Shown one piece after another: positions 30,838 through 47,250 of a DNA stretch of 64,000 nt; within the stretch, counting starts at the first letter, position 1, and each line of letters opens with the position of its first letter. Made by a program: the position numbers and the translations under genes. This DNA comes from a virus (taxonomy: Duplodnaviria > Caudoviricetes). The notes below the pieces were generated by a model. The model worked only from the letters and a program-made list of their open reading frames with translations. It was not told the DNA's origin and searched no databases. The stretch lies in IMG/VR virus record IMGVR_UViG_3300037422_000298. One strand, given 5' to 3'.

Positions 30838-31852
30838 ATGAGCAGCAGTAACGTACGAGCAGTCCCAACCTCAACCGAAGGTCTTCGAGCCGCAGCACAC
30901 GACATCGCCAACATGCTCGCGACCAGCGACGTCGGCGGCGAGTGCTATCACGGCGGTCAACACGCGTGCTTTTCGCGACAAGGGCGCAAGCCGTTGCCGC
31001 TCTACAAGGTCGAAGAAATGTGTGAGCGCTGCGCGGCGTCGTGGCACGCCGTGATGGCCGCAACGCTCCTCGACTCGGTCGTCATCTCGCAACAGTTCCT
31101 CGGCCTCGAACCGACCACGAAGCTCGAACAGCACTTCCTTCACAGCAGCAACGGCGCGGCAGTCGTCGGCGCGACAGTGGCTGCGAAGGCCAGGCGTCAG
31201 CCAGCAGTGCCGCCGAAGGCGCGCAAGCGGAAGGTGAAGGTCAAGGAGTCGACGCGATTCTCAAGGGAGCCGCCGGAGGCCGTGGATGACGCGTTCAGTT
31301 TGAGCGTCGAGCCGCAGAAGCAGTCCAAGCAGTACTCGGTGGAGGAACGCAAGCAGATCGCCGAGTACTACAAGACGCTGCCGCGCAGTCAGAAGGCGCC
31401 GTTCAATCGACGCTACAACGTGAAGGTCTGGCAGATGCGGGACTGGGCGAAGTGATCTGATGATGACCATCAAGAATCTGTCGTCCGCGGATCCGCGGAT
31501 TCGCGACATTGTCAAAAAGCATCTTCGGGCAGCACGATCTGCAATCTCCGAGGAGATCGCACGCGAGCTGACGGAACCACTGCTCGAACAGTGGGGACTG
31601 ACGCGCGAAGATCTCGCGACGCCGTACAACGAAGTGCCCGAAGCCGCACAGGCACGTGAGCCGGTCACCTCGGCAACGTTGATCTACGATTTCGACAACG
31701 CGGACAGACCCAGCGACGAGTCGCAGAACTTCTCGAACATCCACCGTCGATCTGTGACGACGCATCTGCGATTCTGCACGAGCGCACCTGCTTTGGCGCC
31801 GCCGCGTGCGAAGCGCAAGCGCAAGACTCGTCAACCCAAGAAGAAGCCATGA
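30838..31852 (+). other. Two hypothetical genes (30838-31455, 31460-31852)
   Basis: Clean ORFs downstream of promoter. Confidence 0.55.
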
Positions 31853-32763
31853 CCGCACTCGAAACCGCCGTCTCGCGAAGCACCAAGCTCCGACCACGTA
31901 CGAAGGAGCTGTACCTGCAGCACGTTCGCGCGTTCCTCTCGTTCATGCGGGAGGAAAACGGTGAAGAGGCCACCGACAGCTACGATCCGAAGCCGTCGGA
32001 GTTCACGTCCGATATCGCAACCGCGTGGCGCGACGACATGCGCAAGCGCAAGATCCGGCCAGAGAGCGTGAACGTTGCACTCAACGCGCTTCGCTACGCG
32101 GCACAACGTGCAGGCTACACGTTCGTCGAGAATGTCGAGCGACTTCAAGTTCGACGCCGCACGCAATCACGGAGCAAGGACCAGGCGCTCGACTGGAAGG
32201 ACGGTCGCAAGCTCGTGGCCGCCTGCGACGGTCCGAAGGGACGTGATCTTCGTGATCGTGCCATCGTCACGCTCGGGCTGCGAACAGGCATGTTGCGCTT
32301 CTCGATGTGCCAGCTCGACTTCAAGGACATCACCAAAGGCTCGCTGACCTTCACCAAGAAGGGCGGCGAACAGCACACGATCGCACTCGACGACGTTACC
32401 AACGAAGCGCTGCGTGCGTGGATGCGCTGGCTGGCTGCACGCGACGTCAAGGACGGCTTCGTGTTCCGTTCGCTTGGACGACAGCGCGTCAGCCCGAGGG
32501 ACGATGTCGCCATCGGCGATCAGCTGACACCAGACGGTCTGTACCGCGCTCTTCGCGAACGCGCACGCAAAGCCCAACTCGATGACCTACACCCGCACGT
32601 GTTTCGGAAGACGTTCCTGGCGTGGGTCAAGAAGGTGGGCGCGAAGCCACTCCAAATCGAAGCGGTCACTGGGCACAAGTCAGATGGCGTCGGCGGCGAA
32701 GGCGACATCGCGACACCTCCTGCGAACATGCTGCTGCCGTCGTGGGAAGACCGTCTCAAGTGA
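31849..32763 (+). CDS. Tyrosine recombinase/integrase-family protein, apparently lacking catalytic Tyr
   Basis: LRDRAIV..GLRTGMLR, KKGG, LHPHVFR, VTGH; no Tyr after the last His. Confidence 0.8.
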   Translation: MTALETAVSRSTKLRPRTKELYLQHVRAFLSFMREENGEEATDSYDPKPSEFTSDIATAWRDDMRKRKIRPESVNVALNALRYAAQRAGYTFVENVERLQVRRRTQSRSKDQALDWKDGRKLVAACDGPKGRDLRDRAIVTLGLRTGMLRFSMCQLDFKDITKGSLTFTKKGGEQHTIALDDVTNEALRAWMRWLAARDVKDGFVFRSLGRQRVSPRDDVAIGDQLTPDGLYRALRERARKAQLDDLHPHVFRKTFLAWVKKVGAKPLQIEAVTGHKSDGVGGEGDIATPPANMLLPSWEDRLK

Positions 32764-33014
32764 CGGACGATCCCGTCGAACACGCGCGTCAGCGTGCGCG
32801 TGAGCGCGTGCGCCAGGAGGACGAGAAACTGGCCGGGCTCGAAGCCGAGATCGCACGGCTCGCGACAACGTTGCCAGGTCCCGTTCTGCTCGCGCTCGTG
32901 CGCGTGCTCGTCGAGATGGTCTGCTCGGCACAGGGTCCCACCTTTCGCGTGCACAACAAGATCAAGTTCTACGAAGGCGTCTTGGGGACGTTGCGACAAA
33001 ACGGCGTCGTATGA
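32760..33014 (+). CDS. Hypothetical protein
   Basis: Overlap chain. Confidence 0.5.
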   Translation: MTDDPVEHARQRARERVRQEDEKLAGLEAEIARLATTLPGPVLLALVRVLVEMVCSAQGPTFRVHNKIKFYEGVLGTLRQNGVV

Positions 33015-33347
33015 AGCTCCGCAAGCCCTGTGAAAATTGCCCCGTACTGGCATCCAGAACACTTCGAGCAGATCTGGCGCAACTGGCAAGACGACGGCAC
33101 GCACCTCATGCTCTGTCACAAGGCGAACAACATGCCGGAAGGTACGCCGAACCGCGAGAAGCCGATCTGCCAAGGCTGGATTCGTGTGATGGGGTTTGAG
33201 TCGATCGGCGTTCGCATTGCCGCCATGCACGGTGAGATCTCCGTCGAGGAAGTCGAAGACACGACCTCCATCGAGCTGTTCCCGACATTCGAGGCGATGC
33301 TACGCGCGAACAAGATCAAGCTGCCCAGGCGGAACAAGTTCGTATGA
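33011..33347 (+). pseudogene. Frameshifted DUF6283-like gene
   Basis: MKLRKPCENCP in one frame; YWHPEHF...LCHK...ICQGW continues in the +1 frame after about 33044. Confidence 0.55.
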
Positions 33348-33664
33348 AGAAGCGTCCCGCCGAGTTCTACATGTATGGCGTGATCTCCAACGAGAGTGCG
33401 TACGTCGGGCGGTGTGTCGAGTTTCCAGAGCTGCGCTACGTCGCGGCATCGCCGAGTGAAGCACTCAGCGGTGTCACGCAACTTGTCGAGAACGAGTTGC
33501 GCATGACGTGCGATCCCCCGGAGCCGTTGTCGCGCAAAAAGTTCAGCGGCAAGATCGCAGTTCGTGTTACGCCGGACCTGCATCGCAGGCTCGTACTTCA
33601 AGCGGCCGAACGTGGCGTCTCGTTGAACAGCCTGATCAATTCGAAGTTGTCGTGGAGTCTGTGA
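33344..33664 (+). CDS. hicB: HicB-family antitoxin (orphan)
   Basis: YVGRCVEFPEL...SPSEAL...FSGKIAVRVTPDLHRRL..AAERGVSLN. Confidence 0.8.
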   Translation: MKKRPAEFYMYGVISNESAYVGRCVEFPELRYVAASPSEALSGVTQLVENELRMTCDPPEPLSRKKFSGKIAVRVTPDLHRRLVLQAAERGVSLNSLINSKLSWSL

Positions 33665-33666
33665 AT

Positions 33667-36407
33667 ATGGGTGCGCATCTGATCGACGGAGAATTTCAAA
33701 GCGACAAGTACCCGACGTGCCCGCGCGGCAAGGTCCCGCTCAGCGTCAAGGACAAGACGGCTCAGGATTTGTTGTGGGAGTACGCCCAGCGTCGGCGCGT
33801 CGTCGATGCTGAATTCTCCGACGATCTCGAAACGGCGCTTTGCAATGTGGGTTTTCGTCCACCGACGGTGATTGGACCAATGAAGGCCTATCGCGTGTGG
33901 GTTACGATGCCGGATGGTGTAGAAACGACGGGGTCGGCGCCGTACGAACGACGTGAACGAGCAGACACGCATTGCACCGAGCAGCGAGAACGGCGCGACG
34001 CTCGATGGAAGCACGAAGTTCGTGAAGAGGTACTTCCTCGCGACGATGCGCGGCTGGGACGGGTCTCCTCCATCATCCTTGGCGATGATGAACATTGGAC
34101 CGAGGTGAGACTGAACGAAAAGCGGCCGACGAACGAAAGCGTGCTCGCCATCGCCATTCGGGACGTGCTCAAGGCGTGGGACAGCGGCGAGATGAACAAG
34201 GCCGAGTTCGAGCACAAGATGCGTGAGGTGATCTACCACTTCACGCGGACGTATCATCCGCTTGACAAGGACACCGAGGCGCTCGTGTTCGTGGCGAAGC
34301 TCGCCTACCAGTTCAAACTCCGACACGCGGGCTTTTTCATCGGCGGCACGAAGATCCAGCCGTTCTGGGACGCGATCGACGACTTGCCGAGCGGTTTGAC
34401 GAACGAAGCACACCGCGAGATGGAAGCCGAGATCGCAACATGGAAAGCGGATCGGCCGCGATGAAAACTAAACCTCGCAAGCGCGTCACGTGCTTTTCCT
34501 GTAGCCGTCGGCGAATCAAGTACGCTGACGGCCTGTGTGAGACCTGTCATCGTGTTGCCGTCAACGTCGGCCGCCGTCTTGCGATCATCTTCGATGGCGC
34601 GCGATGGCACGTTCGGTCGATTCGGCTGATCGAACACGATCTGGATCTCGATGAGAAGATCTATCGATGCGACAAGCCGATCAGCAACGATCACCGCTCG
34701 ATCGAAGACGCAGTCGCTTCAGCAAAGAGGTACCAACGTGTCGCGTGACTTCAAGCCGATCGATCCCAACAGCGCCCCATCGACACGCAACGCTCGAACG
34801 AAAGATCCAGGAGAAGCGTGAACCGCTACATCATGAAGCCGCCGATGCGCCTCGACGCGCACGGCCACTCGCTCGAACGCTTCATCGAACGCTGGTGGCC
34901 GTGGACACCCACAGAGCTGCGCCTACGTAGCCCGAACAAGAAGGCTGCAGCGCTGCAGCCGCGACTCGCGGAGCTGAAGATGGCGGTCGCTTCGCGTGCG
35001 TACCACGTCGAGAACATCCCTGACGAAGATCAGAGCATCTGGGCATGGACGGTCTGTGCCGGGCCCAACCAAGGCCGCACGGCGTTGATGGTCGTGTCGC
35101 AAGACGGCACAGTGCGAACCGTGTTGCCGCCAGAAGCGAAACGTCCCGCGAACCGTCGGAGGTCGTCGTGATAAAGAAGGTCTACGAGATCGTTACCTTC
35201 GAAGATGCCGGGTACTGGATGCTGCTCGAAGACGGCATCGGGATGGCCAAGAGCAAGTCACGGAACGCGCTCAAGCGCATCCGTGATGCACTGCAAACGG
35301 CGCAAGAGACCGGCCTGATCGGTTTGACCGTCGAGATCGAGGGCGTGAAACGCGGCATCGTGCAAGCGATCAGCGACCGCGCTGACTTGATCGTTCGGCG
35401 TACGGGCGTCCTGCAGACTGACAATCTCGAAGTCTGGCCAGTGCATGCATGTCGTCTCGTCGAGCCCGACAAGATCGACACGCCGACGCCGTGGAACGAT
35501 CCAGCAATTGGCGTCATTCCGGCTATCAAGTTGCTCGAACGTGTATTGGCGTGCGGCATCGATACGATGGGGCACGAACTTGAAACCGTCGCCGACGACA
35601 TCAAGAAGTTTCTCAAGGCACGAGAGGACGCACAGCCTACGCCATGAAGACCAACCAAGATCAAGAACATGTCGACGAAGAGGCGCCCACGCGCACGGTG
35701 CCGTGTAGCATCCATCCGCTGCATCGCGTGAAAGTTCGCACCGACGGCTCGCGTTCGGGCTGCGTGATGTGCGAAGACGCAATCGCTGACCTGACTCGAA
35801 AGGACGGACGATGACCACTGACTACCGTCGAGCAATGACTGCACTCGCGCTTGAACTACCACAAGAAGTTCATCGGCACATCGCAGATCTGTTCGAGCCA
35901 CTGATCGCCGAACACGAGACGAAAGCGATGTCTGTTCTGCAGCCGTGGGTCATGAAGCTCCCGCTTCGCGCGCAGGGCACACTCCTCACTGGCTTTCGTG
36001 GTTGCGATCTCGCACCGAAGAATCCTGTCACGATCGACGAGAGAAACGGCTGCTCGACGGGCGAAGACACCGTCCCGCGTCAGCTCGTCGCGTACTTGCG
36101 TTTCCTGACGCTCGTAGCTGCGGATCCGCGCGAGATCGACGTCCCCGGCGCGTGGTTTCAATCCAAGCCACCGGAGAAGTGGAAGCCGTCGCAGCTCTCG
36201 CACTATCCACTGCACTGGTACGGCCACCTCATGCACTGCTTCGAGGTCGTTGCCTACCTGCGGCCGATCGACGACGAGCACACCGATCGCGCGATTGGTA
36301 TCTACACGCGGCTCGTGCGCGCGCTGCATCTGAACCCTGAGACGAAGGCGCAGATGCTCGAACGCCTGACCGAAGACCGCATCGCGAAGGGCGACGTCGT
36401 CTCGTGA
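33667..36407 (+). other. Hypothetical genes (33667-34464, 34461-34748, 34818-35171, 35168-35647, 35811-36407)
   Basis: Overlap chain and RBS; protein-like composition. Confidence 0.55.
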
Positions 36408-36658
36408 AGGACGAGAAGAAGGCTGCGCTCGAAGCGAATGGCTGGAAGGTCGGCGACGCTGCGCAGTTCTTGGAGATGTCCGAGGCCGAGAAGCAAGCGA
36501 GCCGTCTCATCCACAAGTACGGCCGCGACGGTGCGCTCAAGGCCGTCAAGCAGAACGTCAAGAAGGCCGTCAGCGAGGCCCAGGAAGAATTCTGGGAAGC
36601 CGTTGGCGACCTGATCGAAGAGACCTGCGAACGCCCCGAACAGGAGAACGTCTCGTGA
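36404..36658 (+). CDS. Small protein resembling the N-terminus of XRE-type antitoxins, no clear HTH
   Basis: KKAALEANGWKVGDAAQFLEMS. Confidence 0.4.
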   Translation: MKDEKKAALEANGWKVGDAAQFLEMSEAEKQASRLIHKYGRDGALKAVKQNVKKAVSEAQEEFWEAVGDLIEETCERPEQENVS

Positions 36659-37353
36659 CCAAGCTCATTCTCGCGCTCGACGTCCCGAGCTACGACGACG
36701 CGATGCAATTCGTCGAGTCGATCGAAGGCAATGTACACCTCGACTGGGTCAAGGTCGGCCTGGAGCTGTTCATCTCCGACGGTCAGCGCGTGATGGATGC
36801 AATGTCGAAAGCCGGGTTCAACATCATGCTCGATCTGAAGCTGCACGACATCCCGGAGACCGTCGCTCGCGCGACGGCGCGCGCAGCAGACCTTGGTGCA
36901 GACATGCTGACGATTCATGCCGCGGGCGGCCCGGCGATGATCGCAGCGGCGAAGAAAGCTGCGGGTGACACCAAGATCCTCGCGGTGACGGTTCTGACGT
37001 CGCTCGATGAAGACGACCTGGTCAAGATCGGTCACAGCCCGACGCCGCACAAGACGCTCGTACGCGACCTGGTTCTCCGGCGACTCCGACTGGCCGAAGA
37101 CAACGGTGCCGACGGCGTCGTCTGCTCGCCGCTCGAAGTTCAGACCCTCAAGATGAACGTGATCCGCGGGATGTTGTTCGTGACGCCTGGGATCCGTCCA
37201 TCGGGCGGCGACACGGGCGATCAGAAGCGCGTCGCCACGCCAACGGGTGCCCGCGAAGCGGGCGCGAGCTTCATCGTTGTCGGGCGGCCGATTCGTGACG
37301 CGAAAGACCGGGTCGCGGCCGTAAAGGGCATCCTGGCGGAGCTGACCACGTGA
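36655..37353 (+). CDS. pyrF: Orotidine-5'-phosphate decarboxylase
   Basis: LILALD, VKVGLELF, DLKLHDIPET (DxKxxD), AVTVLTS, VTPGIR, DQKR, VVGRPI. Confidence 0.95.
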   Translation: MTKLILALDVPSYDDAMQFVESIEGNVHLDWVKVGLELFISDGQRVMDAMSKAGFNIMLDLKLHDIPETVARATARAADLGADMLTIHAAGGPAMIAAAKKAAGDTKILAVTVLTSLDEDDLVKIGHSPTPHKTLVRDLVLRRLRLAEDNGADGVVCSPLEVQTLKMNVIRGMLFVTPGIRPSGGDTGDQKRVATPTGAREAGASFIVVGRPIRDAKDRVAAVKGILAELTT

Positions 37354-38245
37354 TGACGCTCAGGAAGCTCCTCGACCAGATCGTCGACGACGGCATCAAG
37401 GCCTGTAGCGAGTCGTACAAGGACGACGCGAAGAAGCGCGAGGGCGCGATTGCAGGCTTCGAGGCATGCCGCAACAAGTCCGTGTTCGAGCTGCGACAGA
37501 TACTAGGTGTGGCGAGCAACGCTGCAGACGTGGCACGCGCCGTCGACCGCGAGAACTACTGGTACCTGCGCTGCTTCCACGCCGAGGTCGAGTGGGTCTG
37601 CAACGTCGTATCGGCGTGCCTGCAGAATCAAGGGCTCGATCCCATCGTCACGCCGATGCGCGGCTACTTGAAGGCTGCCGAGATCGTCGGCGTCGACGGC
37701 GACACGACACTCAAAGAGTTCATCGAACGTCGACAAAACTGATGACAAGCGAACGCCACAACACGATCTGGTCGCTCGAAGTTGCCGAGCGGCGCTTTTT
37801 GCGCGCGCACGGTTGGACGCTCGAACCGAACCGCGGTTGGATCCCGCCTGCGAACTTTCCATTCAAGCGTCGAGGTGCGTACTCACGCGGTCACGCCGTG
37901 AATGCGCAGAAGCAGCTTCTGTATAACCCGATGTTTGGCGGCGATCGCCTGGAGCAGCTGTAGGGGAGAACGATGACGTTTCAAGTACGACGCAACACGG
38001 CCGACGGAATCCTCGACGAAGTCGCTCTCGGTGGCGCGATCAAGATGGAGACGCTGCAGGAGTTGCTCAAGCTACTCGGCGAGAAGACGGATTACTTGTT
38101 CCACATCGCCGTCGAGATTCACACGCCGATGATGCTCAAGACGATCGACAACGAAGGCGACGCGCTCGACACGATCAGTCGGCTGCGCGCCGCTCCTGCG
38201 AAGAGCATCAAGCCTGCACCGAAGAAGTCGTCGCGAAAGAAGTGA
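37350..38245 (+). other. Three hypothetical genes (37350-37742, 37742-37963, 37973-38245)
   Basis: Overlap chain and RBS. Confidence 0.55.
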
Positions 38246-38265
38246 TCTCTCTTGCGACAACGCTC

Positions 38266-38301
38266 TTGACAAGTCGATCGTGAATCGTCTACGACCATAC
38301 T
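38266..38301 (+). promoter_or_regulatory. Promoter elements upstream of RAMP-like gene
   Basis: CTCTTGACAAG context (TTGACA 38266-38271); CATACT 38296-38301, 7 nt before ATG 38309; spacing between them non-canonical. Confidence 0.4.
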
Positions 38302-38308
38302 TTCCGCG

Positions 38309-39166
38309 ATGTCACTAGGGGCATCGAGAACAACGAGCAGGGAGAACGAAGAGCACATGCGTACGCAGCAACAGCATCAGAGCAACGGAAACGGACACGT
38401 CCCCACGCGCGGTGACGTCATGAAGCGCGGGCGCGCAGCACTCGTCGACACCGACGAAGACGCGCCGCCCAAGCGGCGCGGGCGCCCGCCGAAGATGACG
38501 CCGTCGCCGGAAGTGATCGAGCTGCCCGCGGCGAAGGGCAGGAAGGGCAAGGCTGCCAAGGGTGCCGACAAGGGCGAGCTGTCGATCCCGGAGCTGGAGA
38601 CGGCCGAGATCACGTTCACGGTTCGCGGCCTCACGTCGCTGATCGTCCACCGCTTCGGCGAGAAGTCGCGCAAGCAGATGGAAGACAACCAGCAGGGCGT
38701 CGCGCGTCACAAGAAGGCGCCCAAGGTTCCCGAAGACGAATTCCGCAGCTCGCTCTACGTGATCGACGCGAAGAAGGGCATCTACGGCTTTCCGGCGTCG
38801 GGCTTCAAGAAGGCGATGGTCTCGGCGTGTCGCTACGCCGAAGGCGTCACGATGACGAGGATGCTCGGCGCGTTCCACATCATCGGCGATCTGCTGCCGA
38901 TCAAGGGTCCGCCGCCCAAGATGCGCACCGACGTCGTGCGCGTCGGCAAGTTCGGTTCGAAGACCTCGGACATCCGCTACCGCGGCGAGTTCACGGACTG
39001 GAGCGTCGACGTCAAGATCCTCTACAACGCCAGGGTTGTGAACAAGCAGGTGCTCGCTCACCTACTCCACCTCGCAGGCTTCTCCGTCGGCATCGGCGAG
39101 TGGCGTCCCGAGAAGTCGGGACAGTTCGGCATGTTCGAGCTGGCGAACAAGTCGGTCGGTAACTAG
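38309..39166 (+). CDS. Stand-alone Cas7/RAMP-like protein with disordered AT-hook N-terminus (alternative start 38357)
   Basis: ITFTVRGLTSLIVH (beta1), YGFPASGFKKAM (cf. IPGSSLKG), C-terminal Gly-rich loop GFSVGIGEWRPEKSGQFGMF; KRRGRPPK AT-hook. Confidence 0.7.
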   Translation: MSLGASRTTSRENEEHMRTQQQHQSNGNGHVPTRGDVMKRGRAALVDTDEDAPPKRRGRPPKMTPSPEVIELPAAKGRKGKAAKGADKGELSIPELETAEITFTVRGLTSLIVHRFGEKSRKQMEDNQQGVARHKKAPKVPEDEFRSSLYVIDAKKGIYGFPASGFKKAMVSACRYAEGVTMTRMLGAFHIIGDLLPIKGPPPKMRTDVVRVGKFGSKTSDIRYRGEFTDWSVDVKILYNARVVNKQVLAHLLHLAGFSVGIGEWRPEKSGQFGMFELANKSVGN

Positions 39167-39182
39167 TACTTCGTCGACGAGA

Positions 39183-39214
39183 AACGCCGTGATCGCAGCA
39201 GCGATCACGGCGTT
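39183..39214 (+). terminator. Perfect 14-bp hairpin after RAMP-like gene (terminator or array leader)
   Basis: AACGCCGTGATCGC-agca-GCGATCACGGCGTT followed by a pyrimidine-rich tract. Confidence 0.55.
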
Positions 39215-39279
39215 CGTGTTCGTTCTCTGAAAACCGTTGTTCCATCGTCGCGCAAGCAAGCGCGACGACGTCATGGTGA

Positions 39280-41814
39280 GGCAGTCAAGGTGCGGCGCTG
39301 CAGGGCTCGGCGTATCAGGGTCTGGCTCTGTAGGGTCCGGCAACGGTATGGTCGCGCACGGCAGTCCACGTACGGCACGGCGTTGTGTGTTTCGGCGTCG
39401 CAAGCTACGGCAGTCCAGGTCCGTTGCGGCTTCGTTCGTCGCGGCGCGGAAAGGTCGCGCTCGGCAGTCTCGGAATGTCAGTGCAGGTCTGGGTCAGGCC
39501 GCGTTTGGCCCGGCTGCGTTTGGCCCGTCAAGGTGCTGCAGGGCAGTCATGGTTCGGTGCTGCATCGCACTGCTTGGTGTCGTCGGGCTCGGTCCGACGC
39601 GTCGAGGTTAGGCAGTCTTGGTAGGGCTCGACGTGGTCCGTTCGCGCAAGGATCGTTCTGGCTTGGCGCGGTTTCGCAGTCTCGGTCGGGTGAGTCGCCG
39701 CTTGGTGCCGTTGGGCATCGCGCGGTCAGGCACGTCGAGGCAGTCATCGTTTGGTGAATCAGCGCTTGGTTCGTTGAGGCATCGTGCGGCATCGCAGTCA
39801 GGGAATCGCTGGGCAACGCTGGTCCAGGCAACGCACCGCTCGGCATCGCCGTCGAGGTTTGGCGCGTAATGGTTCGTCAAGGCTACGCATGTTTGGGTTG
39901 GGCCGTCTCGGCATGTTTGGATCCGGCTAGTCAGTGTACGGCTAGGCGCCGCGCGGTATGGAGAGGCAGTCAGGGTCTCGGCGCGGCAAGTCAGTGTACG
40001 GCTAGGCGCCGCGCGGTATGGAGAGGCAGTCAGGGTCTCGGCGCGGCAAGTCAGTGTACGGCTAGGCGCCGCGCGGTATGGAGAGGCAGTCAGGGTCTCG
40101 GCGCGGCAGTGCTGCGCCAGGTAGCGCATGTTCTGGCCGGGCTGTCAGGGTTTCGCATCGCATCGCAGTGCGCGATACGGCAACGTCCGTTTCGGCGGTG
40201 CGTGGTAGGGCAGTCTGGTTGCGGCAGCGTCTGTTCAGTCAAGGCATGTTGTCGTTCGGCAGTCAGGGCAAGTTCAGATCCGGCGTTGCTCGGCTCGGCG
40301 TGCGCCCGTTTCGTCACGGCCAGGTGCGGTTGGGCCGTCGTGTCGAGGCATCGCTACGTCCGTTCCGTCAGGGCGCGGCACGTCGGGGCCGTCCAGGTTC
40401 GGCGCGTCAGTGCTGGGTCCGACTTTGCGGGGCAGTGTCCGGCGGGGCATGACAGTCGAGGACAGGCTGGTCACGGTTGGTTACGGTCGTGCCTGGTTTG
40501 GCAGTCATGGTTTGGTTCGGTACCGCTGGTCTTAGTTGGTCATGCCCGGTCTCGACGTGGTTCGGCAGTCGCGTCTCGGTATCGGCAGTCTTGGTAGGTC
40601 AGCGTCGGTCTTGGCAGCGTTCGGTGTGATCGGGTTCGTTACGGCAGTCTGGGTCCGGCGAGGTTTGTCAACGCAGTGCACGGCAACGTACGTCTCGGTG
40701 GGGCAGTCAAGGCACCGCATCGCGGGTCTAGTTGCGTCTCGGTTCGTTTCATCTCGGCAAGGCATGGCCGTCTTGGCAAGGCATCGCCCGTTGCGGCGCC
40801 GTCCGGCCAGTTCTGGTTTGGTAGTGCGTCTTCATGGCAGTCGTGGCTTGTTCCGGCGCGGCCCGTTGTGGTGTTTCATTGCTTGGTAGGGCAGTCGCGG
40901 TTCGTTTCGGCAGCGCGCGTCTGCGTCCGGCATTTGCTCGGTTGGTCGCGGCAGCGGTATGGCCGTCGTGGTCCGTCGGCGTTTGTTCGGGCTAGTTATC
41001 GTCTCGCGCGGCTCGGCAGTTTCGTCTGGGATCGGTTCGGCCTGCTGGGGCAGCGCGTGGCATCGCATCGCATGGCCGTCTTGGTTTCGCACGTCAAGGC
41101 TCGACAGGTTCCGGCTAGGCGCCGTACGGTGCGGCCGTCTAGTCACGGTTGCGCTGGTCGCGGCAGTTTTCGGTTGGTCGCGGTAGTGCATCGTCCGGCA
41201 TCGGCGCGGCAGTCCCGTCGGGGCGTCGTCTCGCTTCGCAAGGCAAGGTCAGGCGAGGACTCGTTTGGCGAGGCAGTCATCGCCAGGTTCGTCGAGGCAG
41301 TGCGAGGCATGGATCGGTTCGGTGGAGTTCGGCGCGGCAGTCGCGGTAGCGCGGGGAAGTGCCCCGCTAGGCAAGGCGTCGCTCGGCGCGGTCAGGCAGT
41401 CCCGGCGCGTCACGCTTTGGCAGCGCTTGGCGGGGTACTGTGTGTCGAGGCAGGGCCGTCTGGGTTAGGTCCGGCGTGTCGCGGTTCGGTTCTTCACGCG
41501 AGGGTGCGGTACGGCATCGCAGTCTTGGATCGTCTCGGCATGGCCGGTTCCGGCAGAGCAGTTCACGGCTAGGTACGACGCGGCAGTCGGTCATGGTCAG
41601 GTGAGGATTGCATCGCAGTGCGCGGCGCCGCCGGGCGTGGCTGTCTTGGTCAGGCGAGGCTCGGTCTCGTGCGTCGCGGCGAGGTTTGGCAGTCTCGGCG
41701 CGGTGGCGTACGGCTCGACAAGGTTCGGCAAGGCCCTGCAGGGCAGTCATGGTTAGGTCCGTCGGGGCGTGATCCCGTGCGTCGCGGTCCGGCACGGCAG
41801 GCATGGCAAGTCGA
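39280..41814 (+). ncRNA. Non-coding GGY-NN pentamer array, about 42 units separated by GGCAGTC-like delimiters (putative guide-RNA array)
   Basis: About 43 delimiters (GGCAGTC/GGCCGTC/GGCTGTC/CGCAGTC) mostly spaced 49/54/59/64/69 nt (9+5n); 5-nt periodicity; G-rich, A-poor + strand; no credible ORF. Confidence 0.8.
39929..40108 (+). repeat. Three exact tandem copies of a 60-nt array segment
   Basis: 39929-39988, 39989-40048 and 40049-40108 are identical. Confidence 0.95.
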
Positions 41815-41839
41815 GAGTGACTTGTGCTAGAGTTGATCG

Positions 41840-42379
41840 ATGGCGCGCGCAGCAACAAGGCAGTCTCGATCGCGGCAGCGATCTACGCATTGGACGTATC
41901 ACTTCAAGGCCGTCGAGGGCAGCCGGTACACCGATCAGGATGCACAGCGTATCGGTCCCGAGTTGACGCGTATCGCGCAACGCGATGGTGAAATTCGCCC
42001 ACAAGCCGTCGTCGACGAAGCACGCTCGCGGCGCTCGCCGTTTCACCGACATTTCCAATGGGACATCCAGAAGGCCGCCGAACAACACTGGCTCGACACT
42101 GCTGGACGGTTGATCCGCGCGATCAAGATCGAGGTCGTCAGCGGACCACAGCGTGCACCCAAGGAAGTCCGTGCGTTCGTCAAGATCGATCGCGCGACCG
42201 GTTATCGTCCGACCATTGAAGTGTTTCAGCGCGACGACTACCGCAACGCGGTGCTCTCGCGTGCACTCGAAGAGCTGGAAGTCTGGAAGAAGCGCTACGA
42301 GAACTTCGTCGACTTCAGCGAAATCTTCGGCGACGTCGCGCCGATCATTGTACAGGCTCAACAGCGGCTGCGAGCGTAG
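41840..42379 (+). CDS. Array-associated hypothetical protein
   Basis: Directly after array; TGC-TAGAGT extended -10 six nt before ATG; VVDEARSRRSPFHRHFQWD...AAEQHW..AGRLIR. Confidence 0.7.
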   Translation: MARAATRQSRSRQRSTHWTYHFKAVEGSRYTDQDAQRIGPELTRIAQRDGEIRPQAVVDEARSRRSPFHRHFQWDIQKAAEQHWLDTAGRLIRAIKIEVVSGPQRAPKEVRAFVKIDRATGYRPTIEVFQRDDYRNAVLSRALEELEVWKKRYENFVDFSEIFGDVAPIIVQAQQRLRA

Positions 42380-42621
42380 CCAGTGGAGCCGCGGAGCGGC
42401 CGTTGGCGTCTCGCGTTGCAGAGTGAGCTGTGCGAGTGTTTCGACTGTGCGAGTCCGACGTGTGACGAGCGCTTGTGGATCGCGTACAGCGTGCTCGATC
42501 GTTTCATCTGCGCGTTGTGCGGCCATCAGGCGAGCGATCGACGTACGAACATCACGGCGTGCAAACGCCGTTGTGGGTACGTGTTCCAAGAAGATCTTCC
42601 GCGCGCTACGGTGGTCCAGCG

Positions 42622-44150
42622 ATGAGCGTTTCCAAGTGTCCACACGGCATCTTCACGCACAGCATCTCGAACCGCTGCCCGATTTGCTTCGGCGTCGACG
42701 CGTACAACAGCGACGCGATTCCGATCGTCGGCCACGGCAACGGTTGGTTGCTGCACAAAGGCGACTTGGTCTGTCCTGAGTGTGGCGGTCCGCGTACGGC
42801 AGGCTGGGGTGCGTACGACAACAGCAAGCGCAGTACGCCACCCGACCCGAAGAATCCGAACGACTGGCCGACGACGTGTTACGCCTGCACGAGCGGCAAT
42901 TCGAAGGCTGCGATCTTGAAACGTACTGCGCACGAAGCTCAGCGCGGCGTTCGCAAGACACCCGGAGCAAAGTGATGGGACGTCGAACCTACGAAGCCAA
43001 GATGATGATCGTCACGCCCGACATGGACACCGGGATGATCGTCTTCGCTAACGAACACGTGCACCGTGACATCGACGAGCTGGGCTCGCGCATGCTGGAA
43101 GACATCCTCGGCAAGCAGCAGCCACCCGATGCAGGCGTCTGGATCTGGGAAGGCAAGCAGGTTTGGTCATCAGGCTACCGCGGTCCTGACGGTGACTACG
43201 ATACCGACGTCGACTACCGCGACGGCACGTGGCGTCGTCCTACGGAGACCGAGATCGCACAGCTCGTCCGCGGCGAATCACCGTGGCCGAGGCCGCCAGC
43301 GGAGGACGCTGATGACTGAAGCAGAACGCGATCTGTTGATGATGGCCAACTACTACGAACCGGACCTCCCTCAAGCGTTGGCCAAAGCGATGGCGAGTGT
43401 CGACGTAGATCAGTTGCGAGCCCTCGCGCTCAAGTACATCAACGCGACCAAGGTGCTCGTCGACGGTGTAGACACCGTGCTGAGGCCGCGATCGTGAAGA
43501 CGTACCGCGCGATGCGCGTCACCCGAGCACCGATCTCGCCACCACTCTGCGCACAACACTTCAAAGAGACCGACGATGTGCTTCTCAAGGCGGATGACGT
43601 TGAAGTCGAAGAGCTAGACGATCCCTACTGCATCATGTGTCAGACAGCTGCTGCGCCCGACCGCACGTGCGGGAGCTGTGGCAAACCGCTCCACCCAAAC
43701 TGGCATGCGGTGTATTGCTCGAACGAGTGCGCGATCGCTGACTTGTGATAAGGTCCGCGGCTCGCATGAGCCCGGGATCTACAGTCGCAGCAGCGATCGA
43801 CGCAGATTGCGAAGCCTTGGAGCTTCTCGCCGTCGAGGTCCAGCTCAACGGCGCGACATCGCTCGCTAGCCAAGAGCTACTTGTGATACTGTCGGCGCAT
43901 GCTCGCCGCCGTGGAATTGCCCGAGAAACTCTGTGTGGTCCGCTGGACCGGACGTGTACGGCTGCACGTGGAAGTGCTGACCGTCTGCGGTATGAAGATG
44001 GACGCTGCTGATGGTGTCGTGCAGGTCCCAGACTTCATCTTCGACGGCCGACCTGTACTCAGCATCAGCGACTTCGGTGGCAAGGGACGTCGCCCGCTCA
44101 AAATCTGCGACGACTGCAAGAACGCAGTCGTCGCAGCGATCAAGGGCTAG
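42622..44150 (+). other. Small hypothetical genes (42622-42975, 42975-43319, 43312-43497, 43494-43748, 43899-44150)
   Basis: Overlap chain; several CxxC motifs. Confidence 0.5.
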
Positions 44151-44596
44151 AAGCGCCGAGCGCGACTGATCCCGAAGCCGATCGCGGCGATCCCTACAGC
44201 GATCGCGACGCCGATTCCGATCTTGGTTCCGGTCGACAGTCCCGCCTGTCCGCTCGTCACCCCCGCGCTCGTGTTGTTGACGTCCGCGACTACAGGAATG
44301 ATCTTGTCGGCAGCGCCACCCTGTTGAACAGCGAGTAGCCCGACTTCGGTGCGATCGTCAGCCGTCGCGATCGACTGTAAGAGCGTTCGAACGTCTTCGT
44401 TCGATGTCCCGTTGGCCGCTTTCGCGATGCGGTCCGCGAGCTGCGTCTTCTCGTCTTCCGTGAGGCCAAATAGATCAATGCCGCGCACACCGTTCACGCG
44501 GAATCGCGGATCGACTGGCGGCAGGATGTTCTCGACGTAGAACGGGACCACGGCGTACGGCCACGGATACGGTGCGCGAGGTTCGAGTGCGATCAT
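44147..44596 (-). CDS. C-terminally anchored membrane protein, paralog of 47254-47862
   Basis: FGLTEDEKTQLA vs FGALTEDDKNKLA; TM plus basic tail. Confidence 0.7.
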   Translation of the reverse strand: MIALEPRAPYPWPYAVVPFYVENILPPVDPRFRVNGVRGIDLFGLTEDEKTQLADRIAKAANGTSNEDVRTLLQSIATADDRTEVGLLAVQQGGAADKIIPVVADVNNTSAGVTSGQAGLSTGTKIGIGVAIAVGIAAIGFGISRARRF

Positions 44597-45603
44597 ACTG
44601 CGAGCCTTTCTCGTCGCACGTAGCGACGGCCGAATGCACTTGGATCTGGTTTCACCCACGGTGGTGGCGGTTCGTCCATGTAACGCAGGTGCATCTTGGC
44701 CGCCTTATAGGCGAGGTAGATGTCCTCTTCGGAATACCCCTCGTCGACCAGCTGATCGTGGATCTCTTTCTTGGGCACCTCATACGAGAGCGCTTGGGCG
44801 ATGCGGTTGATCAGTCGCTCGTCGACGATGCCGAGACCTCGGCGCTTTCCGAACGGTGCTTGTGCGGCGCGCCTCGCAGCACGCAGCACCAACCAGCTGA
44901 GTCCGACGAGGCCAACGACGGCAACGACGCCGATCGCGATCTTGGCGCCTGCTGACGTATCGGTCGTCAACGCATCTGGCGGCGTGGTCAGCGCGACGGC
45001 TAGCTGCTTGCCTGCGATCACGGCGCCGGGCTGCGTGAAGTGTACGCCATCGCTAGCGCGCCCCGCGACCGCGGTCAACGGTCGTGCATCGATCGTGCGA
45101 TCGGCGCCGAAGACCGTACGCAACGCGTCCAACATGATCGGCGCGCCTTGCGTGTAGCGGGCGTCTTGGTACGTCGGCGGTCCGATCGCGAAGATTTCGA
45201 CGTTACCGAGCTTGTCGCGGTACGCCTGTTTGATGCGCGTCAAGTCTTGAATCGTCCGTGCGATCGCCGCCGACGACACGCCGTTGTCGATGTCGTTGGT
45301 GGCCAACATGATCACGATCTTGGTCGGCCGAAACGCGACATCGTTGGCGATCAAGTTGCTGGCGTCTTCGTTGATGAAAAAGCTGCGAGCCGATCGTCCG
45401 ACACGTGCGTCGATGCGTACAGCTTGCGCCTGTAGATCTTCGAGCAGGTGTGCTGCCATCACCGCGCCCGGCGCCGATGACAACGCGGGCGCGGTACCAC
45501 TCCGGTCGCCCGCGCGAACATCGATGATCGTGGGGCCTGCATCGGGACCTGAGTGCGAGAGGCTGTCACCGAAGATCAAGATGCGTTCGCCTGCGACGTT
45601 CAC
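44593..45603 (-). CDS. SGNH/GDSL hydrolase with TM anchor
   Basis: IFGDSL (block I), MLATND (III), DGVH (V); TM about aa 220-240. Confidence 0.85.
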   Translation of the reverse strand: MNVAGERILIFGDSLSHSGPDAGPTIIDVRAGDRSGTAPALSSAPGAVMAAHLLEDLQAQAVRIDARVGRSARSFFINEDASNLIANDVAFRPTKIVIMLATNDIDNGVSSAAIARTIQDLTRIKQAYRDKLGNVEIFAIGPPTYQDARYTQGAPIMLDALRTVFGADRTIDARPLTAVAGRASDGVHFTQPGAVIAGKQLAVALTTPPDALTTDTSAGAKIAIGVVAVVGLVGLSWLVLRAARRAAQAPFGKRRGLGIVDERLINRIAQALSYEVPKKEIHDQLVDEGYSEEDIYLAYKAAKMHLRYMDEPPPPWVKPDPSAFGRRYVRRERLAV

Positions 45604-46550
45604 TCGTCGCTCCAGTCGCCGTCATCCCAGTCACGCCCGAGGAAACGCCCTGGGTGGCGTTTGGCGACGCGCTTGGAGACCTGCCAGGCGCCGAATGCGA
45701 GTCCGAGCAAGCTGCCGACGAGCAGCGTACCGACCAGGAACTGTTTGCCGGAGCTGGTCGGCGGCGCGCCTGGTGTGCCGCAGATCGGCAGGTTCGCGGG
45801 CCACACCGGGCGCATACTCGCGGCGACGATGCTGCCTTCGTAGACGGGATTGCCGAAGAACGTACGAGCACGCTCGATCAGTTGCTTGCCTTCGAACGAC
45901 TCAGGTTTGAAACCGAACGTGCGAAACTGCGTCGTCTTCCAGTGATCGACGCCGGGAATCGGCCCGACCCAATACTTGCCGTTCTTCGCTTCGCTCAGGA
46001 TGCGGTTCATCGGAACGGGGAAAAATTTCTTGAATTCGAGACCGTCCTGATCGTCGGCGCCGTGGTTGATGTTCTCGCTCTTGCCGCTGATCACGAGGTC
46101 CGCGAGCAGCGCAGACAGGATGCTCGGGTCGCGGCTAGTGGCCGCAAAACGACCGGTATTGCGCCCGCCAGGTACGTTGATCTCGCCGTACAGTTTCGTC
46201 GGCTGCGTGAACAGAAGCAGCCCGTTGACGTCTTGCTTGCGCCGCTTGGCTTGGTTGACCGCAACCTCGCCGACAGCGACGCGTTCTTCAGCGGTACCAC
46301 TGCCGACTTCGCTGTGGATGTAGCGCGCGAGCGTGTACATGTTCAGGTCGAGTGCTTTGCCCTTCGGCCAGAACGTCGACGCTTGCAGTTGTTTCTCGGC
46401 GCTCGCGCGCATGGTCTCGGGCGCGCATCGAATCTCGCCGGTTTCATCCGGTTTGCAGCCCGACGTCAGAATCGTCTTGTCGGCAGGGCCGCCGACCATC
46501 GGCGCGAACGTCGGGTGCCACGACGCATAGCAGTCAGGCGTTGCGGCCAT
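45600..46550 (-). CDS. SleB/Hydrolase_2-like cell-wall hydrolase with TM anchor
   Basis: TLARYIHSEVGS...RVAVGEVAVN; C-terminal TM. Confidence 0.6.
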   Translation of the reverse strand: MAATPDCYASWHPTFAPMVGGPADKTILTSGCKPDETGEIRCAPETMRASAEKQLQASTFWPKGKALDLNMYTLARYIHSEVGSGTAEERVAVGEVAVNQAKRRKQDVNGLLLFTQPTKLYGEINVPGGRNTGRFAATSRDPSILSALLADLVISGKSENINHGADDQDGLEFKKFFPVPMNRILSEAKNGKYWVGPIPGVDHWKTTQFRTFGFKPESFEGKQLIERARTFFGNPVYEGSIVAASMRPVWPANLPICGTPGAPPTSSGKQFLVGTLLVGSLLGLAFGAWQVSKRVAKRHPGRFLGRDWDDGDWSDE

Positions 46551-47250
46551 GTCTCACCCTCCGATGATGCTCGCGACGTCCGAGAGCGACTGCGGCGCGC
46601 TTCGCAAGAACCCACGCGAGCCAGCTGAGTCCGGCGAGACCTCCGACGGCGACCGTACCGATCACGATGTTGCGACCGGTCTTGCTTTCGGGCTGCGGCA
46701 CCGTCGCGAGTGGTTGCGGACGATCGCGGAACAGTGGAATACCCAGCTCGCGTGCGGTCGCGACGACTGTTGACGCATAGTTGTCGACAGGTAGCCATGG
46801 CTCGCTGGGAATGCCCGTCCCGAAGCCGAAATCGTTCGAGAAGCCTGTCGATGGTTTCCCGACGGTCTCGGTGATCGCCGGGATCAACGCCGCGGGCACG
46901 CTCAGATCGAAGTGCAGGTGCGGGCCTTCGGACAGGCCCGTGTTGCCAGACACGCCGATCTGTTGTCCCTTCGTCACGCGTTGTCCGCGCGTGACGAGCG
47001 CGCGAGATAGGTGGAGGTAGCGCGAGACGACACTGTCGTCGTGCGTCAACGCGACAAAGATTCCCGCGTCGCTTGTACCCGTCGGGTCGACGTTCCTGAC
47101 CGTACCGTTGGCGACGGCCAAGATCGGCGTGCCGACCGCGAGTGGAATGTCGAGTGCTGGATGGATTCCCGTCGAACGCATGCGCCACCCATCACCAATC
47201 GTCACGTTGACGTTGGTGGGCGCAACACGGCCGAGCGCGAGGTCGATCAT
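46534..47250 (-). CDS. M23 peptidase with TM anchor
   Basis: HPALD, RYLHL, IGVSGNTG, GPHLHF; C-terminal TM. Confidence 0.85.
   Translation of the reverse strand: MIDLALGRVAPTNVNVTIGDGWRMRSTGIHPALDIPLAVGTPILAVANGTVRNVDPTGTSDAGIFVALTHDDSVVSRYLHLSRALVTRGQRVTKGQQIGVSGNTGLSEGPHLHFDLSVPAALIPAITETVGKPSTGFSNDFGFGTGIPSEPWLPVDNYASTVVATARELGIPLFRDRPQPLATVPQPESKTGRNIVIGTVAVGGLAGLSWLAWVLAKRAAVALGRREHHRRVRHGRNA

What the first reader, a model, noticed from the sequence alone, without database searches (positions are those of the whole stretch)
38309..42379. Compact candidate RNA-guided system: lone Cas7/RAMP-like gene + GGY-NN array + partner gene
Seen: a gene with RAMP-like hallmarks (beta1 strand, FPASGFK, C-terminal Gly-rich loop), two hairpins, a 2.5 kb periodic non-coding array and a 179-aa gene, all on one strand. 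No cas1/2/3/5/6 and no CRISPR repeats are recognisable in the window. Established: Cas7 RAMPs polymerise along guide RNA with a fixed nucleotide period. Inference: the protein binds one GGY-NN pentamer per subunit, with GGY as the handle and NN displayed, so each unit is a guide that reads its target non-contiguously. From memory this matches phage systems reported recently as VIPR (RAMP protein plus GGY/NN RNAs); I cannot verify that assignment here. No nuclease is visible, so silencing of competing elements or host genes is more likely than cleavage.
Basis: partly seen in the sequence, partly recalled or inferred. Interest (0 to 1): 0.97.

Follow-up and report, generated by a model that had tools for sequence, protein, structure and literature searches.

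The report
Phage VIPR locus with ~45-guide array
This is a real example of the VIPR systems described in 2026 (a lone Cas7-like protein, guide RNAs built from GGY-NN five-letter repeats, and an accessory gene), here in a large uncultured phage with an unusually long array, one guide of which exactly spells a conserved motif of a widespread prophage gene family.

Summary

- **Protein.** ORF 38357-39166 is a RAMP-fold protein. It matches the solved SUSP1 Vipr protein (profile E 7.8e-12), and its best structural matches are all CRISPR Cas7, Cas5 and Cas6 proteins (Z up to 11.2).
- **Array.** 39272-41801 is a one-strand array of about 480 YNNGG pentamers in roughly 40-50 units. The units are separated by a 4-nt C[AC]GT junction. 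This is the 'staggered' layout that relatives share, usually with CAGG.
- **Accessory gene.** The 179-aa gene sits next to vipr in 108 of 148 related loci. Its fold is unknown.

New here:

- Under the published 1-nt-skip rule, guide 41460-41519 matches a motif of P63C-domain prophage genes, 24/24 in 53 of 80 viral contigs analysed. All matches are in frame with the skipped base at wobble. Seven other guide cores gave nothing that held up.
- The array's NN letters read as codon positions 1-2 only after reverse-complementing (r 0.81 vs -0.20). Most relatives show the opposite polarity, and I cannot explain this.

Expression, processing and binding are untested. The kind is already published, and this scan has noted it in at least 215 other genomes. 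I file it as a new member of a known kind.

The parts
38357..39166 (+). vipr: 269-aa RAMP (Cas7-like) protein. An alternative upstream ATG at 38309 would give 285 aa. The core is residues ~80-265.
   Evidence: phmmer match to PDB 36pp_D 'SUSP1 Vipr protein', E 1.1e-5; profile E 7.8e-12. AF2 core pLDDT above 90. Foldseek top hits are Csm3 (E 4e-6). VIA-align Z 11.2 to Csm3 and Cmr, with the top 31 hits all CRISPR RAMPs. 894 homologs found. phrog_4652.
38357..38590 (+). N-terminal ~78-residue low-confidence basic tail of Vipr. It carries an AT-hook-like KRRGRPPK motif (residues 39-46, nt 38471-38494).
   Evidence: pLDDT 45-56. 16 K+R in the first 75 residues. GRP-type motifs occur in the N-terminal tails of 14 of 45 aligned homologs. 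That it binds DNA is inference.
39183..39214 (+). Terminator-like hairpin directly after vipr (14-bp stem, weak T tract).
39245..39268 (+). Second hairpin (9-bp GC stem), just upstream of the first pentamers.
   Evidence: Function unknown.
39272..41801 (+). vrRNA array: about 480 YNNGG pentamers in roughly 40-50 units of mostly 9-15 pentamers. Units are separated by G-C[AC]GT junctions ('staggered' layout) and have no long invariant tail.
   Evidence: There are 50 GC[AC]GT sites (19.8/kb vs 4.05/kb elsewhere; shuffles average 9, maximum 17). Spacing modulo 5 equals 4 in 31 of 49 intervals; median spacing 54 nt.
39924..40108 (+). Three tandem copies (98-100% identical) of a 60-nt stretch of the array, indicating a recent duplication of guide units.
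41460..41519 (+). Guide whose 12 NN pairs (TG TA CC GT GC TC TC AC AG GC AC AT) are the antisense of codon positions 1-2 of [I/A/V]VALVDEATGYQ in P63C-domain phage proteins.
40842..40891 (+). Guide that decodes (antisense) to L-K/N-I/M-T-T-G-A-G-K/N-T, a Walker-A-like motif. This is a tentative match to ResIII-type helicase genes.
   Evidence: Only 18/20 matches were found, none exact.
41840..42379 (+). vap-like accessory gene (179 aa, phrog_15946, no Pfam family, no recognisable fold).
   Evidence: Homolog adjacent to vipr in 64/80 viral loci (E<=1e-3) and 108/148 loci overall (E<=1e-8). AF2 pLDDT 89. No Foldseek match and only unspecific helical-hairpin matches. Atlas clusters are viral hypothetical proteins.

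Best explanation
The locus is a VIPR (Viral Interference Programmable Repeat) system carried by a large uncultured phage.

By homology to the characterised SUSP1 system, the mechanism is inferred as follows. Vipr protomers polymerise along each vrRNA, one per GGY-NN pentamer. They flip out GGY and present the NN pairs. The NN pairs base-pair with DNA that reads NN-x-NN-x, skipping one target base per repeat. Binding then silences transcription of the bound gene.

Here the guides are packed head-to-tail in a 'staggered' array. Each unit ends in a fixed GGCAG followed by T, so the next unit starts one base out of register.

The guides are written against codon positions 1-2 of conserved protein motifs, with the skipped base at wobble. 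One guide therefore covers many diverged copies of a gene. At least one guide is aimed at P63C-domain genes of other phages and prophages, so the likely role is silencing of competing mobile elements. Host defence genes are a possible second target class.

Shown here: protein family and fold, array anatomy, conserved gene neighbourhood, and one exact target family.

Inferred: transcription and processing of the array, filament assembly, DNA rather than RNA as the target, silencing, and the role of the accessory protein.
For: Protein:
- PDB SUSP1 Vipr is the only significant sequence match (E 1.1e-5; profile E 7.8e-12).
- The residues that contact G1/G2/Y3 in SUSP1 (R138 and D177-W178-R179, paper .720927) align to R225 and E264-W265-R266 in 285-aa numbering.
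- RAMP fold: Z 11.2 to Csm3; Foldseek probability 1.00.

Array:
- 36-fold excess of in-phase YNNGG, on one strand only.
- GGY conserved and NN variable.

Comparative:
- Most of the 148 related loci carry a same-strand pentamer array next to vipr and the accessory gene.
- The unit junction is a 4-nt short repeat across the family: CAGG 363, CAGT 40, CTGG 26, CCGT 25. This fits the '1 nt overlapping' staggered arrays of fig. S18 in the discovery paper.

Target:
- The 10-unit core of guide 41460 gave 81 IMG/VR stretches, of which 80 were analysed.
- Flanking units match in 77/80 and 56/80 (1/16 expected by chance); 53 are 24/24.
- All are in frame and antisense, in 300-350-aa ORFs with Pfam P63C (7/7 tested) and phrog_2384.
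- The 57 distinct target 29-mers vary only at the skipped positions, across contigs of 36-67% GC.
- Seven other guide cores of 18-20 specified bases gave 0, 0, 0, 7, 1 and 0 hits in the viral scans, and the hits failed extension. Background is therefore about zero.

Other:
- No self-target in the window.
- A ~90-94% identical soil-metagenome contig keeps the flanks but aligns only in pieces across the array, with unit-sized skips. This is consistent with guide turnover.
Against: - No RNA data exist for this element, so transcription, processing at the junctions and RNP formation are untested.
- Only 1 of 8 guides searched has a located target. The Walker-A-like guide reaches only 18/20 (23 hits vs 5 for the backwards control).
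- The host is unknown and no whole genome is held, so host or resident-prophage targets could not be searched properly.
- 47% of pentamers depart from a strict GG (GT 18%, CG 16%), so some units may be decayed.
- The type II hallmark, an invariant 3' tail with a pseudoknot, is absent. How unit ends are defined is therefore unknown.
- The accessory protein has no recognisable DNA-binding fold.
Confidence: 0.88

Rival explanations
1. Same machinery, but the main job is counter-defence. The guides would chiefly silence host genes such as restriction or helicase-type defence enzymes, rather than rival phages.
For: The guide at 40842-40891 decodes to a Walker-A motif. Its <=2-mismatch matches in 401 Pseudomonadota genomes (23 vs 5 for the backwards control) lie antisense and in frame in ResIII-domain ORFs. 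Seven of eight guide cores have no match in viral contigs, which leaves room for cellular targets.
Against: No exact host match was found. The 18/20 matches rest largely on the generic TGAGKT motif. The single 19/20 hit lies in a 141-aa ORF. The one firm target is a phage/prophage gene family.
Confidence: 0.25
2. This clade variant acts on RNA. Because the guides are antisense to coding strands, the Vipr-vrRNA filament would bind mRNAs rather than, or as well as, DNA.
For: The array's NN composition matches codon positions 1-2 only in reverse complement (r 0.81 vs -0.20; 0.85 without the triplicated units). 30 of 35 units prefer the antisense reading (binomial p 2e-5). Both located matches are antisense. 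The closest solved folds are the RNA-targeting type III backbone proteins Csm3 and Cmr4.
Against: SUSP1 VIPR binds dsDNA and forms an R-loop triplex (papers). Most relatives of this same clade show the opposite, sense polarity (69 of 81 arrays), and sense guides cannot pair with mRNA. The AT-hook-like tail suggests DNA contact. Antisense guides pair equally well with the non-template DNA strand.
Confidence: 0.1
3. The array is a decaying or non-functional pentamer satellite left beside an orphan RAMP gene.
For: Nearly half of the pentamers deviate from GG. There is no expression evidence.
Against: - An exact 24/24 match of one unit to a conserved gene motif, far above background.
- Junction motifs at regular 5k+4 spacing.
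- The same anatomy in most of the 148 related loci.
- The NN composition tracks codon usage.
- vipr and the accessory gene are intact, with strong codon bias.
Confidence: 0.03

Closest known systems
VIPR systems with 'staggered' vrRNA arrays (bioRxiv 10.64898/2026.04.26.720920, fig. S18 legend)
   Same: A lone Vipr RAMP gene, an accessory gene and a GGY/NN pentamer array. Adjacent vrRNAs abut with a one-base register overlap (GGCAG followed by the next unit). There is no CRISPR array and no cas1/cas2.
   Different: The junction here is C[AC]GT rather than the family's usual CAGG. The array lies between vipr and the accessory gene, whereas most relatives have vipr-vap-array. At ~2.5 kb it is longer than in any of the 148 relatives fetched; the next longest is L021 with 0.73 + 1.2 kb. 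The paper states that staggered arrays were not among the layouts confirmed by sRNA-seq. Which of the seven types this is cannot be told from the text held.
Type II VIPR of Escherichia phage SUSP1 and the Pseudomonas fulva prophage (same preprints; PDB 36pp)
   Same: Homologous Vipr protein with conserved thumb Arg and G-loop [D/E]-W-R. The 1-nt-skip reading has wobble-aligned targets in conserved coding sequence of competing elements.
   Different: Sequence similarity is confined to the C-terminal third (E 1e-5). SUSP1 has 4 vrRNAs, each with an invariant 3' tail and pseudoknot; here there are ~45 units without a tail. Published natural targets lie on both strands, whereas here the guides are strongly antisense. 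The Vipr here has a ~78-residue basic N-terminal tail with an AT-hook-like motif, which the papers do not mention.
Class 1 CRISPR backbone proteins (Cas7 family: Csm3, Cmr4/6, Csf2)
   Same: RRM/RAMP fold with thumb and glycine-rich loop (Z 9-11). Polymerisation along a guide with a fixed nucleotide period is inferred.
   Different: No CRISPR repeats and no other cas genes. The period is 5 nt with 3 flipped bases, instead of 6 nt with 1. The guides are genome-encoded, with no acquisition genes (cas1/cas2) seen.

Membership tests
VIPR system | Vipr protein: RAMP fold with RRM core, thumb and glycine-rich loop | tested here: met
   AF2 model with core pLDDT above 90. VIA-align Z 11.2 / 154 aligned residues to Csm3, with the top 31 hits all CRISPR RAMPs. 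Foldseek E 4e-6, probability 1.00. G-loop GIGEWRPEKSG.
VIPR system | Sequence homology to an experimentally characterised Vipr | tested here: met
   PDB 36pp_D SUSP1 Vipr: phmmer E 1.1e-5; family profile E 7.8e-12. It is the only significant PDB sequence hit.
VIPR system | Residues that read GGY in SUSP1 (H17, R138, D177, W178, R179) | tested here: inconclusive
   R138, D177, W178 and R179 align to R225, E264, W265 and R266. These positions are invariant or nearly so in the family. A His sits on the first strand (IVH, residues 96-98 of the 269-aa form), but it lies outside the aligned stretch, so its equivalence to H17 is not shown.
VIPR system | vrRNA genes: tandem YNNGG repeats (at least 4 units) with conserved GGY and variable NN | tested here: met
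   About 481 pentamers. Y 94%, G 75% and 76% at the two G positions, NN near-uniform. 36-fold enrichment, one strand only.
VIPR system | Minimal locus: vipr plus an accessory (vap) gene, no CRISPR array, no other cas genes | tested here: met
   The accessory homolog is adjacent in 108/148 related loci. No repeat-spacer array in the window. No Cas family among the 25 ORFs scanned against PHROGs. The remaining small ORFs were not scanned.
VIPR system | Accessory gene belongs to one of vap1-vap6 | not testable with these tools
   The paper's vap sequences and figures are not held. The protein is phrog_15946 and has no Pfam family or recognisable fold.
VIPR system | Guides match natural targets under the 1-nt-skip (NNx) rule | tested here: met
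   Guide 41460: 53 contigs at 24/24 and 80 at >=20/24, all in P63C-domain genes. Seven other guides gave no convincing match.
VIPR system | vrRNAs are expressed, processed and bound by Vipr; the complex represses its target | not testable with these tools
   This needs RNA sequencing and binding or reporter assays.
Type II VIPR (SUSP1 type) | Each vrRNA ends in an invariant structured 3' tail (pseudoknot) | tested here: not met
   Units are separated by only 4 nt (C[AC]GT). No conserved tail was found, and no Rfam or hammerhead match.
CRISPR-Cas class 1 | CRISPR repeat-spacer array and further cas genes (cas5, cas6, cas1/2, effector nuclease) | tested here: not met
   No such repeats in the 64 kb. 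No cas families in the scanned ORFs.

The most novel reading that the evidence does not exclude
Arrays of this Vipr clade are polar: within one array nearly all guides read the same strand of their target genes. Most relatives carry sense-reading guides. This phage's ~45 guides are antisense, so they pair with the coding strand and, in principle, with the mRNA. If real and functional, this points to one of two things. Either the filament needs a particular strand, or the (unknown) process that makes new guides has a direction. The window's array would then represent an inverted, possibly RNA-capable variant.
Probability: 0.15. Interest if true: 0.75.

Novelty: new member of a known kind. Interest (0 to 1): 0.5.

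Why it matters
VIPR was described only in 2026, and its experiments cover type II systems with a few tailed guides. This locus adds three things.

- **A staggered array with a located target.** It is a large, cleanly parsable example of the 'staggered' layout that the discovery paper did not confirm experimentally. One guide has an exact, statistically clear target: a conserved motif of P63C-domain phage genes found in contigs from 36 to 67% GC. This illustrates how wobble-skipping lets one guide cover a whole gene family.
- **An unreported strand polarity.** Guide arrays in this clade appear to be polar. If confirmed, this bears on how guides are made or how the filament blocks transcription.
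- **Cultured phages for testing.** The same vipr-array-vap module occurs in Gordonia phage UmaThurman and in Mycobacterium smegmatis phages. In UmaThurman the array is annotated as a protein gene (gp40). The predictions can therefore be tested in ordinary laboratory hosts.

Tried and rejected
- **Fourier spectrum.** A global period-5 spectrum over the array shows nothing, because the register slips at each junction. I replaced it with in-phase pair counts and a register-tracking segmentation.
- **Self-targeting.** No guide exceeds shuffled-guide maxima anywhere in the 64-kb window.
- **Targets in related loci.** Nothing above null in the 148 related loci. In the 80 P63C loci only the P63C guide itself scores above null, so the guides do not converge on one element there.
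- **Kinase-like guide (41748).** 0 exact hits for 9 units in viral contigs.
- **Triplicated guide.** 0 hits.
- **Guide 40146.** 7 hits, all failing extension, in short or broken ORFs.
- **Guide 39681.** 1 hit, failing extension.
- **Guide 41342.** 0 hits.
- **Walker-A guide.** 0 exact hits in viral contigs. The best genome hit (19/20) lies in a 141-aa ORF.
- **Whole genome.** None is held.
- **RNA runs.** No RNA holder is listed among the sequencing runs.
- **Vipr-accessory complex prediction.** No verdict.
- **Accessory protein.** No Pfam family, no Foldseek match, only unspecific helical-hairpin matches.
- **Promoters.** No sigma-70-like promoter in the locus.
- **P63C literature.** A literature search for P63C gave nothing relevant. 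What I say about that domain's origin rests on the Pfam name and my memory of Iyer, Koonin and Aravind 2002.


Full report
**What is there.** On the + strand lie, in order:
- a 269-aa gene (38357-39166; an upstream ATG at 38309 would give 285 aa);
- two hairpins;
- a 2.53-kb non-coding stretch (39272-41801);
- a 179-aa gene (41840-42379).

The non-coding stretch has no codon periodicity. It is saturated with in-phase YNNGG pentamers: 32.5 in-phase pairs per kb against 0.9 per kb in the rest of the window, none on the other strand, and GG autocorrelation peaks at 5, 10, 15 and 20 nt.

A register-tracking segmentation gives about 481 pentamers:
- position 1 is a pyrimidine in 94%;
- positions 2-3 are close to uniform;
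- positions 4 and 5 are G in 75% and 76%.

The pentamers fall into units of mostly 9-15, separated by a 4-nt junction: CAGT 24 times, CCGT 8 and CTGT 2. G-C[AC]GT occurs 50 times. That is 19.8 per kb against 4.05 per kb elsewhere, and shuffles reach 17 at most. Spacing is 5k+4 in 31 of 49 intervals, with a median of 54 nt. Three 60-nt stretches at 39924-40108 are 98-100% identical tandem copies.

**The protein.**
- Pfam finds nothing. PHROGs gives phrog_4652, of unknown function.
- Against all PDB sequences the only significant hit is 36pp, 'SUSP1 Vipr protein' (E 1.1e-5). A profile of 45 homologs raises this to 7.8e-12.
- The aligned stretch contains the residues that the cryo-EM paper names as reading G1, G2 and Y3. 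Thumb R138 aligns to R225, and G-loop D177-W178-R179 aligns to E264-W265-R266.
- The AlphaFold model has pLDDT above 90 over residues 80-265. Its best structural matches are all CRISPR RAMPs: Csm3 Z 11.2, Cmr Z 11.2, Cas7-11, type IV and type I Cas7, Cas6.
- The first ~78 residues are of low confidence and basic, and contain KRRGRPPK. GRP-type motifs recur in the N-terminal tails of 14 of 45 homologs. The papers held do not mention this.

**The literature.** VIPR systems (Vipr RAMP protein, vrRNAs of alternating GGY/NN, a vap accessory gene, mostly in phages) were reported in 2026. The papers establish the following:
- the NN pairs read dsDNA with one skipped base per repeat, and the complex silences transcription;
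- structures show one protomer per repeat and an R-loop triplex;
- a third paper shows that the skipped base falls on wobble positions of a conserved recombinase active-site segment in satellites.

The discovery paper lists 'staggered arrays with overlapping vrRNAs', described as '1 nt overlapping positions'. It says that only the ribozyme-interspersed and single-vrRNA layouts were confirmed by sRNA-seq.

**Comparative evidence.** 894 homologs were found. In 148 related loci from viral contigs, genomes and metagenomes:
- the 179-aa gene has an adjacent homolog in 108;
- most loci have a same-strand pentamer array next to it;
- the unit junction is a 4-nt short repeat throughout: CAGG 363, CAGT 40, CTGG 26, CCGT 25.

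Read in GGYNN register, every unit ends in GGCAG, and its last G (here a T) starts the next unit. This is the one-base overlap of the published staggered arrays.

The usual gene order is vipr-vap-array. The window has vipr-array-vap, as do L038, L059 and, in part, L012, L021 and L072. The window's array is the longest of the set; the next is L021 with 0.73 + 1.2 kb.

The same module occurs in cultured phages. In Gordonia phage UmaThurman the 'gene' gp40, between the vipr and vap homologs, is in fact a staggered CAGG array.

**The accessory protein.** The model is confident (pLDDT 89). It has no Pfam family, no Foldseek match, and only unspecific matches to its C-terminal helical hairpin. Its Atlas neighbours are viral hypothetical proteins. 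I cannot say which vap it is.

**Targets.** I applied the published NNx rule, with shuffled-guide controls.
- No guide matches the window itself or the 148 related loci.
I tested this at the DNA level.
I analysed 80 of them.
- In those 80, the two flanking units match in 77 and 56 cases, and 53 are perfect 24/24.
- All lie in frame and antisense in 300-350-aa ORFs. These carry Pfam P63C (7 of 7 tested) and belong to phrog_2384. The motif sits 10-20 residues before the Pfam domain.
- The 57 distinct target sequences differ only at the skipped positions and come from contigs of 36-67% GC.

Seven other guide cores serve as empirical background. They gave 0, 0, 0, 7, 1 and 0 viral hits, and the 8 hits failed extension.

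The Walker-A-like guide (40842-40891) has no exact match. At <=2 mismatches it hits 23 sites in 401 Pseudomonadota genomes, against 5 for the backwards control. Ten of the ten sites fetched are antisense and in frame, and nine of these lie in long ORFs. All five that I tested carry ResIII. I treat this as tentative, because much of the match is the generic TGAGKT.

**Strand polarity.**
- The array's NN composition correlates with codon positions 1-2 of the window's own genes only after reverse-complementing: r 0.81 against -0.20. Without the triplicated units the figures are 0.85 against -0.23, and with strict-GG pentamers only 0.76 against -0.02.
- Of six orientation/frame models, 'antisense, positions 1-2' is the best by 76 bits or more.
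- 30 of 35 units prefer antisense to sense (binomial p 2e-5).
- In 81 non-redundant arrays of relatives the reverse holds. 69 lean sense (45 by more than 10 bits) and 12 lean antisense (3 by more than 10 bits). Pooled, r is 0.61 forward and -0.31 reverse.

The papers report natural targets on both strands and no strand requirement in the reporter assay, and they do not discuss a bias. The composition test is indirect. Only two located matches, one of them tentative, back it for this window. I record it as unexplained.

**Context.**
- The window has 62% GC and about 90 mostly small ORFs.
- It carries a tyrosine integrase (31849-32763) and an M23 peptidase (46534-47250, minus strand), with few PHROG matches otherwise.
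- It has no tRNA genes and no close relative among deposited phages.
- It was assembled from a freshwater metagenome.
- Earlier notes of this scan, unchecked by me, place it in a phage genome of more than 220 kb.
- A soil-metagenome contig of 35,385 nt is about 90-94% identical over vipr and the genes on both sides. Across the array it aligns only in pieces, with skips of 35-174 nt. This fits turnover of whole guide units.

**Verdict.** The locus is a member of the published VIPR family with the staggered-array layout, not the type II layout. Expression, processing, binding and silencing are inferred by homology. It is a new member of a known kind. Its added value is one firm natural target family and an unexplained array polarity.

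Noticed in passing
L249:1063-1386 (Gordonia phage UmaThurman NC_031249.1, 33362-33685): The annotated protein gene gp40, between the vipr homolog (gp39) and the vap homolog (gp41), is a staggered YNNGG array with CAGG junctions. It is probably misannotated as coding. This gives a cultured phage with the same vipr-array-vap order as the window.
   Followed up: partly
related loci L001-L148 (arrays next to vipr): The NN composition of 69 of 81 non-redundant arrays reads like codon positions 1-2 in the forward (sense) direction. That is the opposite polarity to the window's array. Published work does not mention a strand bias.
   Followed up: partly
window 36655-37353 (+): A 232-aa ORF whose N-terminus (KLILALDVP...) looks to me, from memory, like an orotidine-5'-phosphate decarboxylase. 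It had no PHROG hit. This would be an auxiliary nucleotide-metabolism gene in a phage.
   Followed up: no
window 56364-56535: Seven copies of an 18-nt tandem repeat. It lies at the junction of two minus-strand ORFs (55578-56360 and 56351-57103), probably within the 3' end of the latter.
   Followed up: no
window 50380-50439: A perfect 30-nt tandem duplication inside ORF 49893-50822.
   Followed up: no
window 31849-32763 (+): A tyrosine integrase (phrog_1, E 1.5e-24) in what earlier notes call a giant phage. It hints at a temperate or integrating lifestyle.
   Followed up: no
window 41840-41885: The pentamer pattern and one more GGCAGT junction (41859) run into the first ~45 nt of the accessory gene. 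Its first 16 residues are basic, unconserved and of low confidence. The array's 3' end and the gene's 5' end therefore overlap in sequence character.
   Followed up: partly
window 33000-47000 vs soil metagenome runs X2/X3: A ~90-94% identical relative of this phage region occurs in soil metagenomes on a 35,385-nt contig. It has several replaced segments in the flanking genes as well (for example 35159-35934 and 37744-37970).
   Followed up: partly
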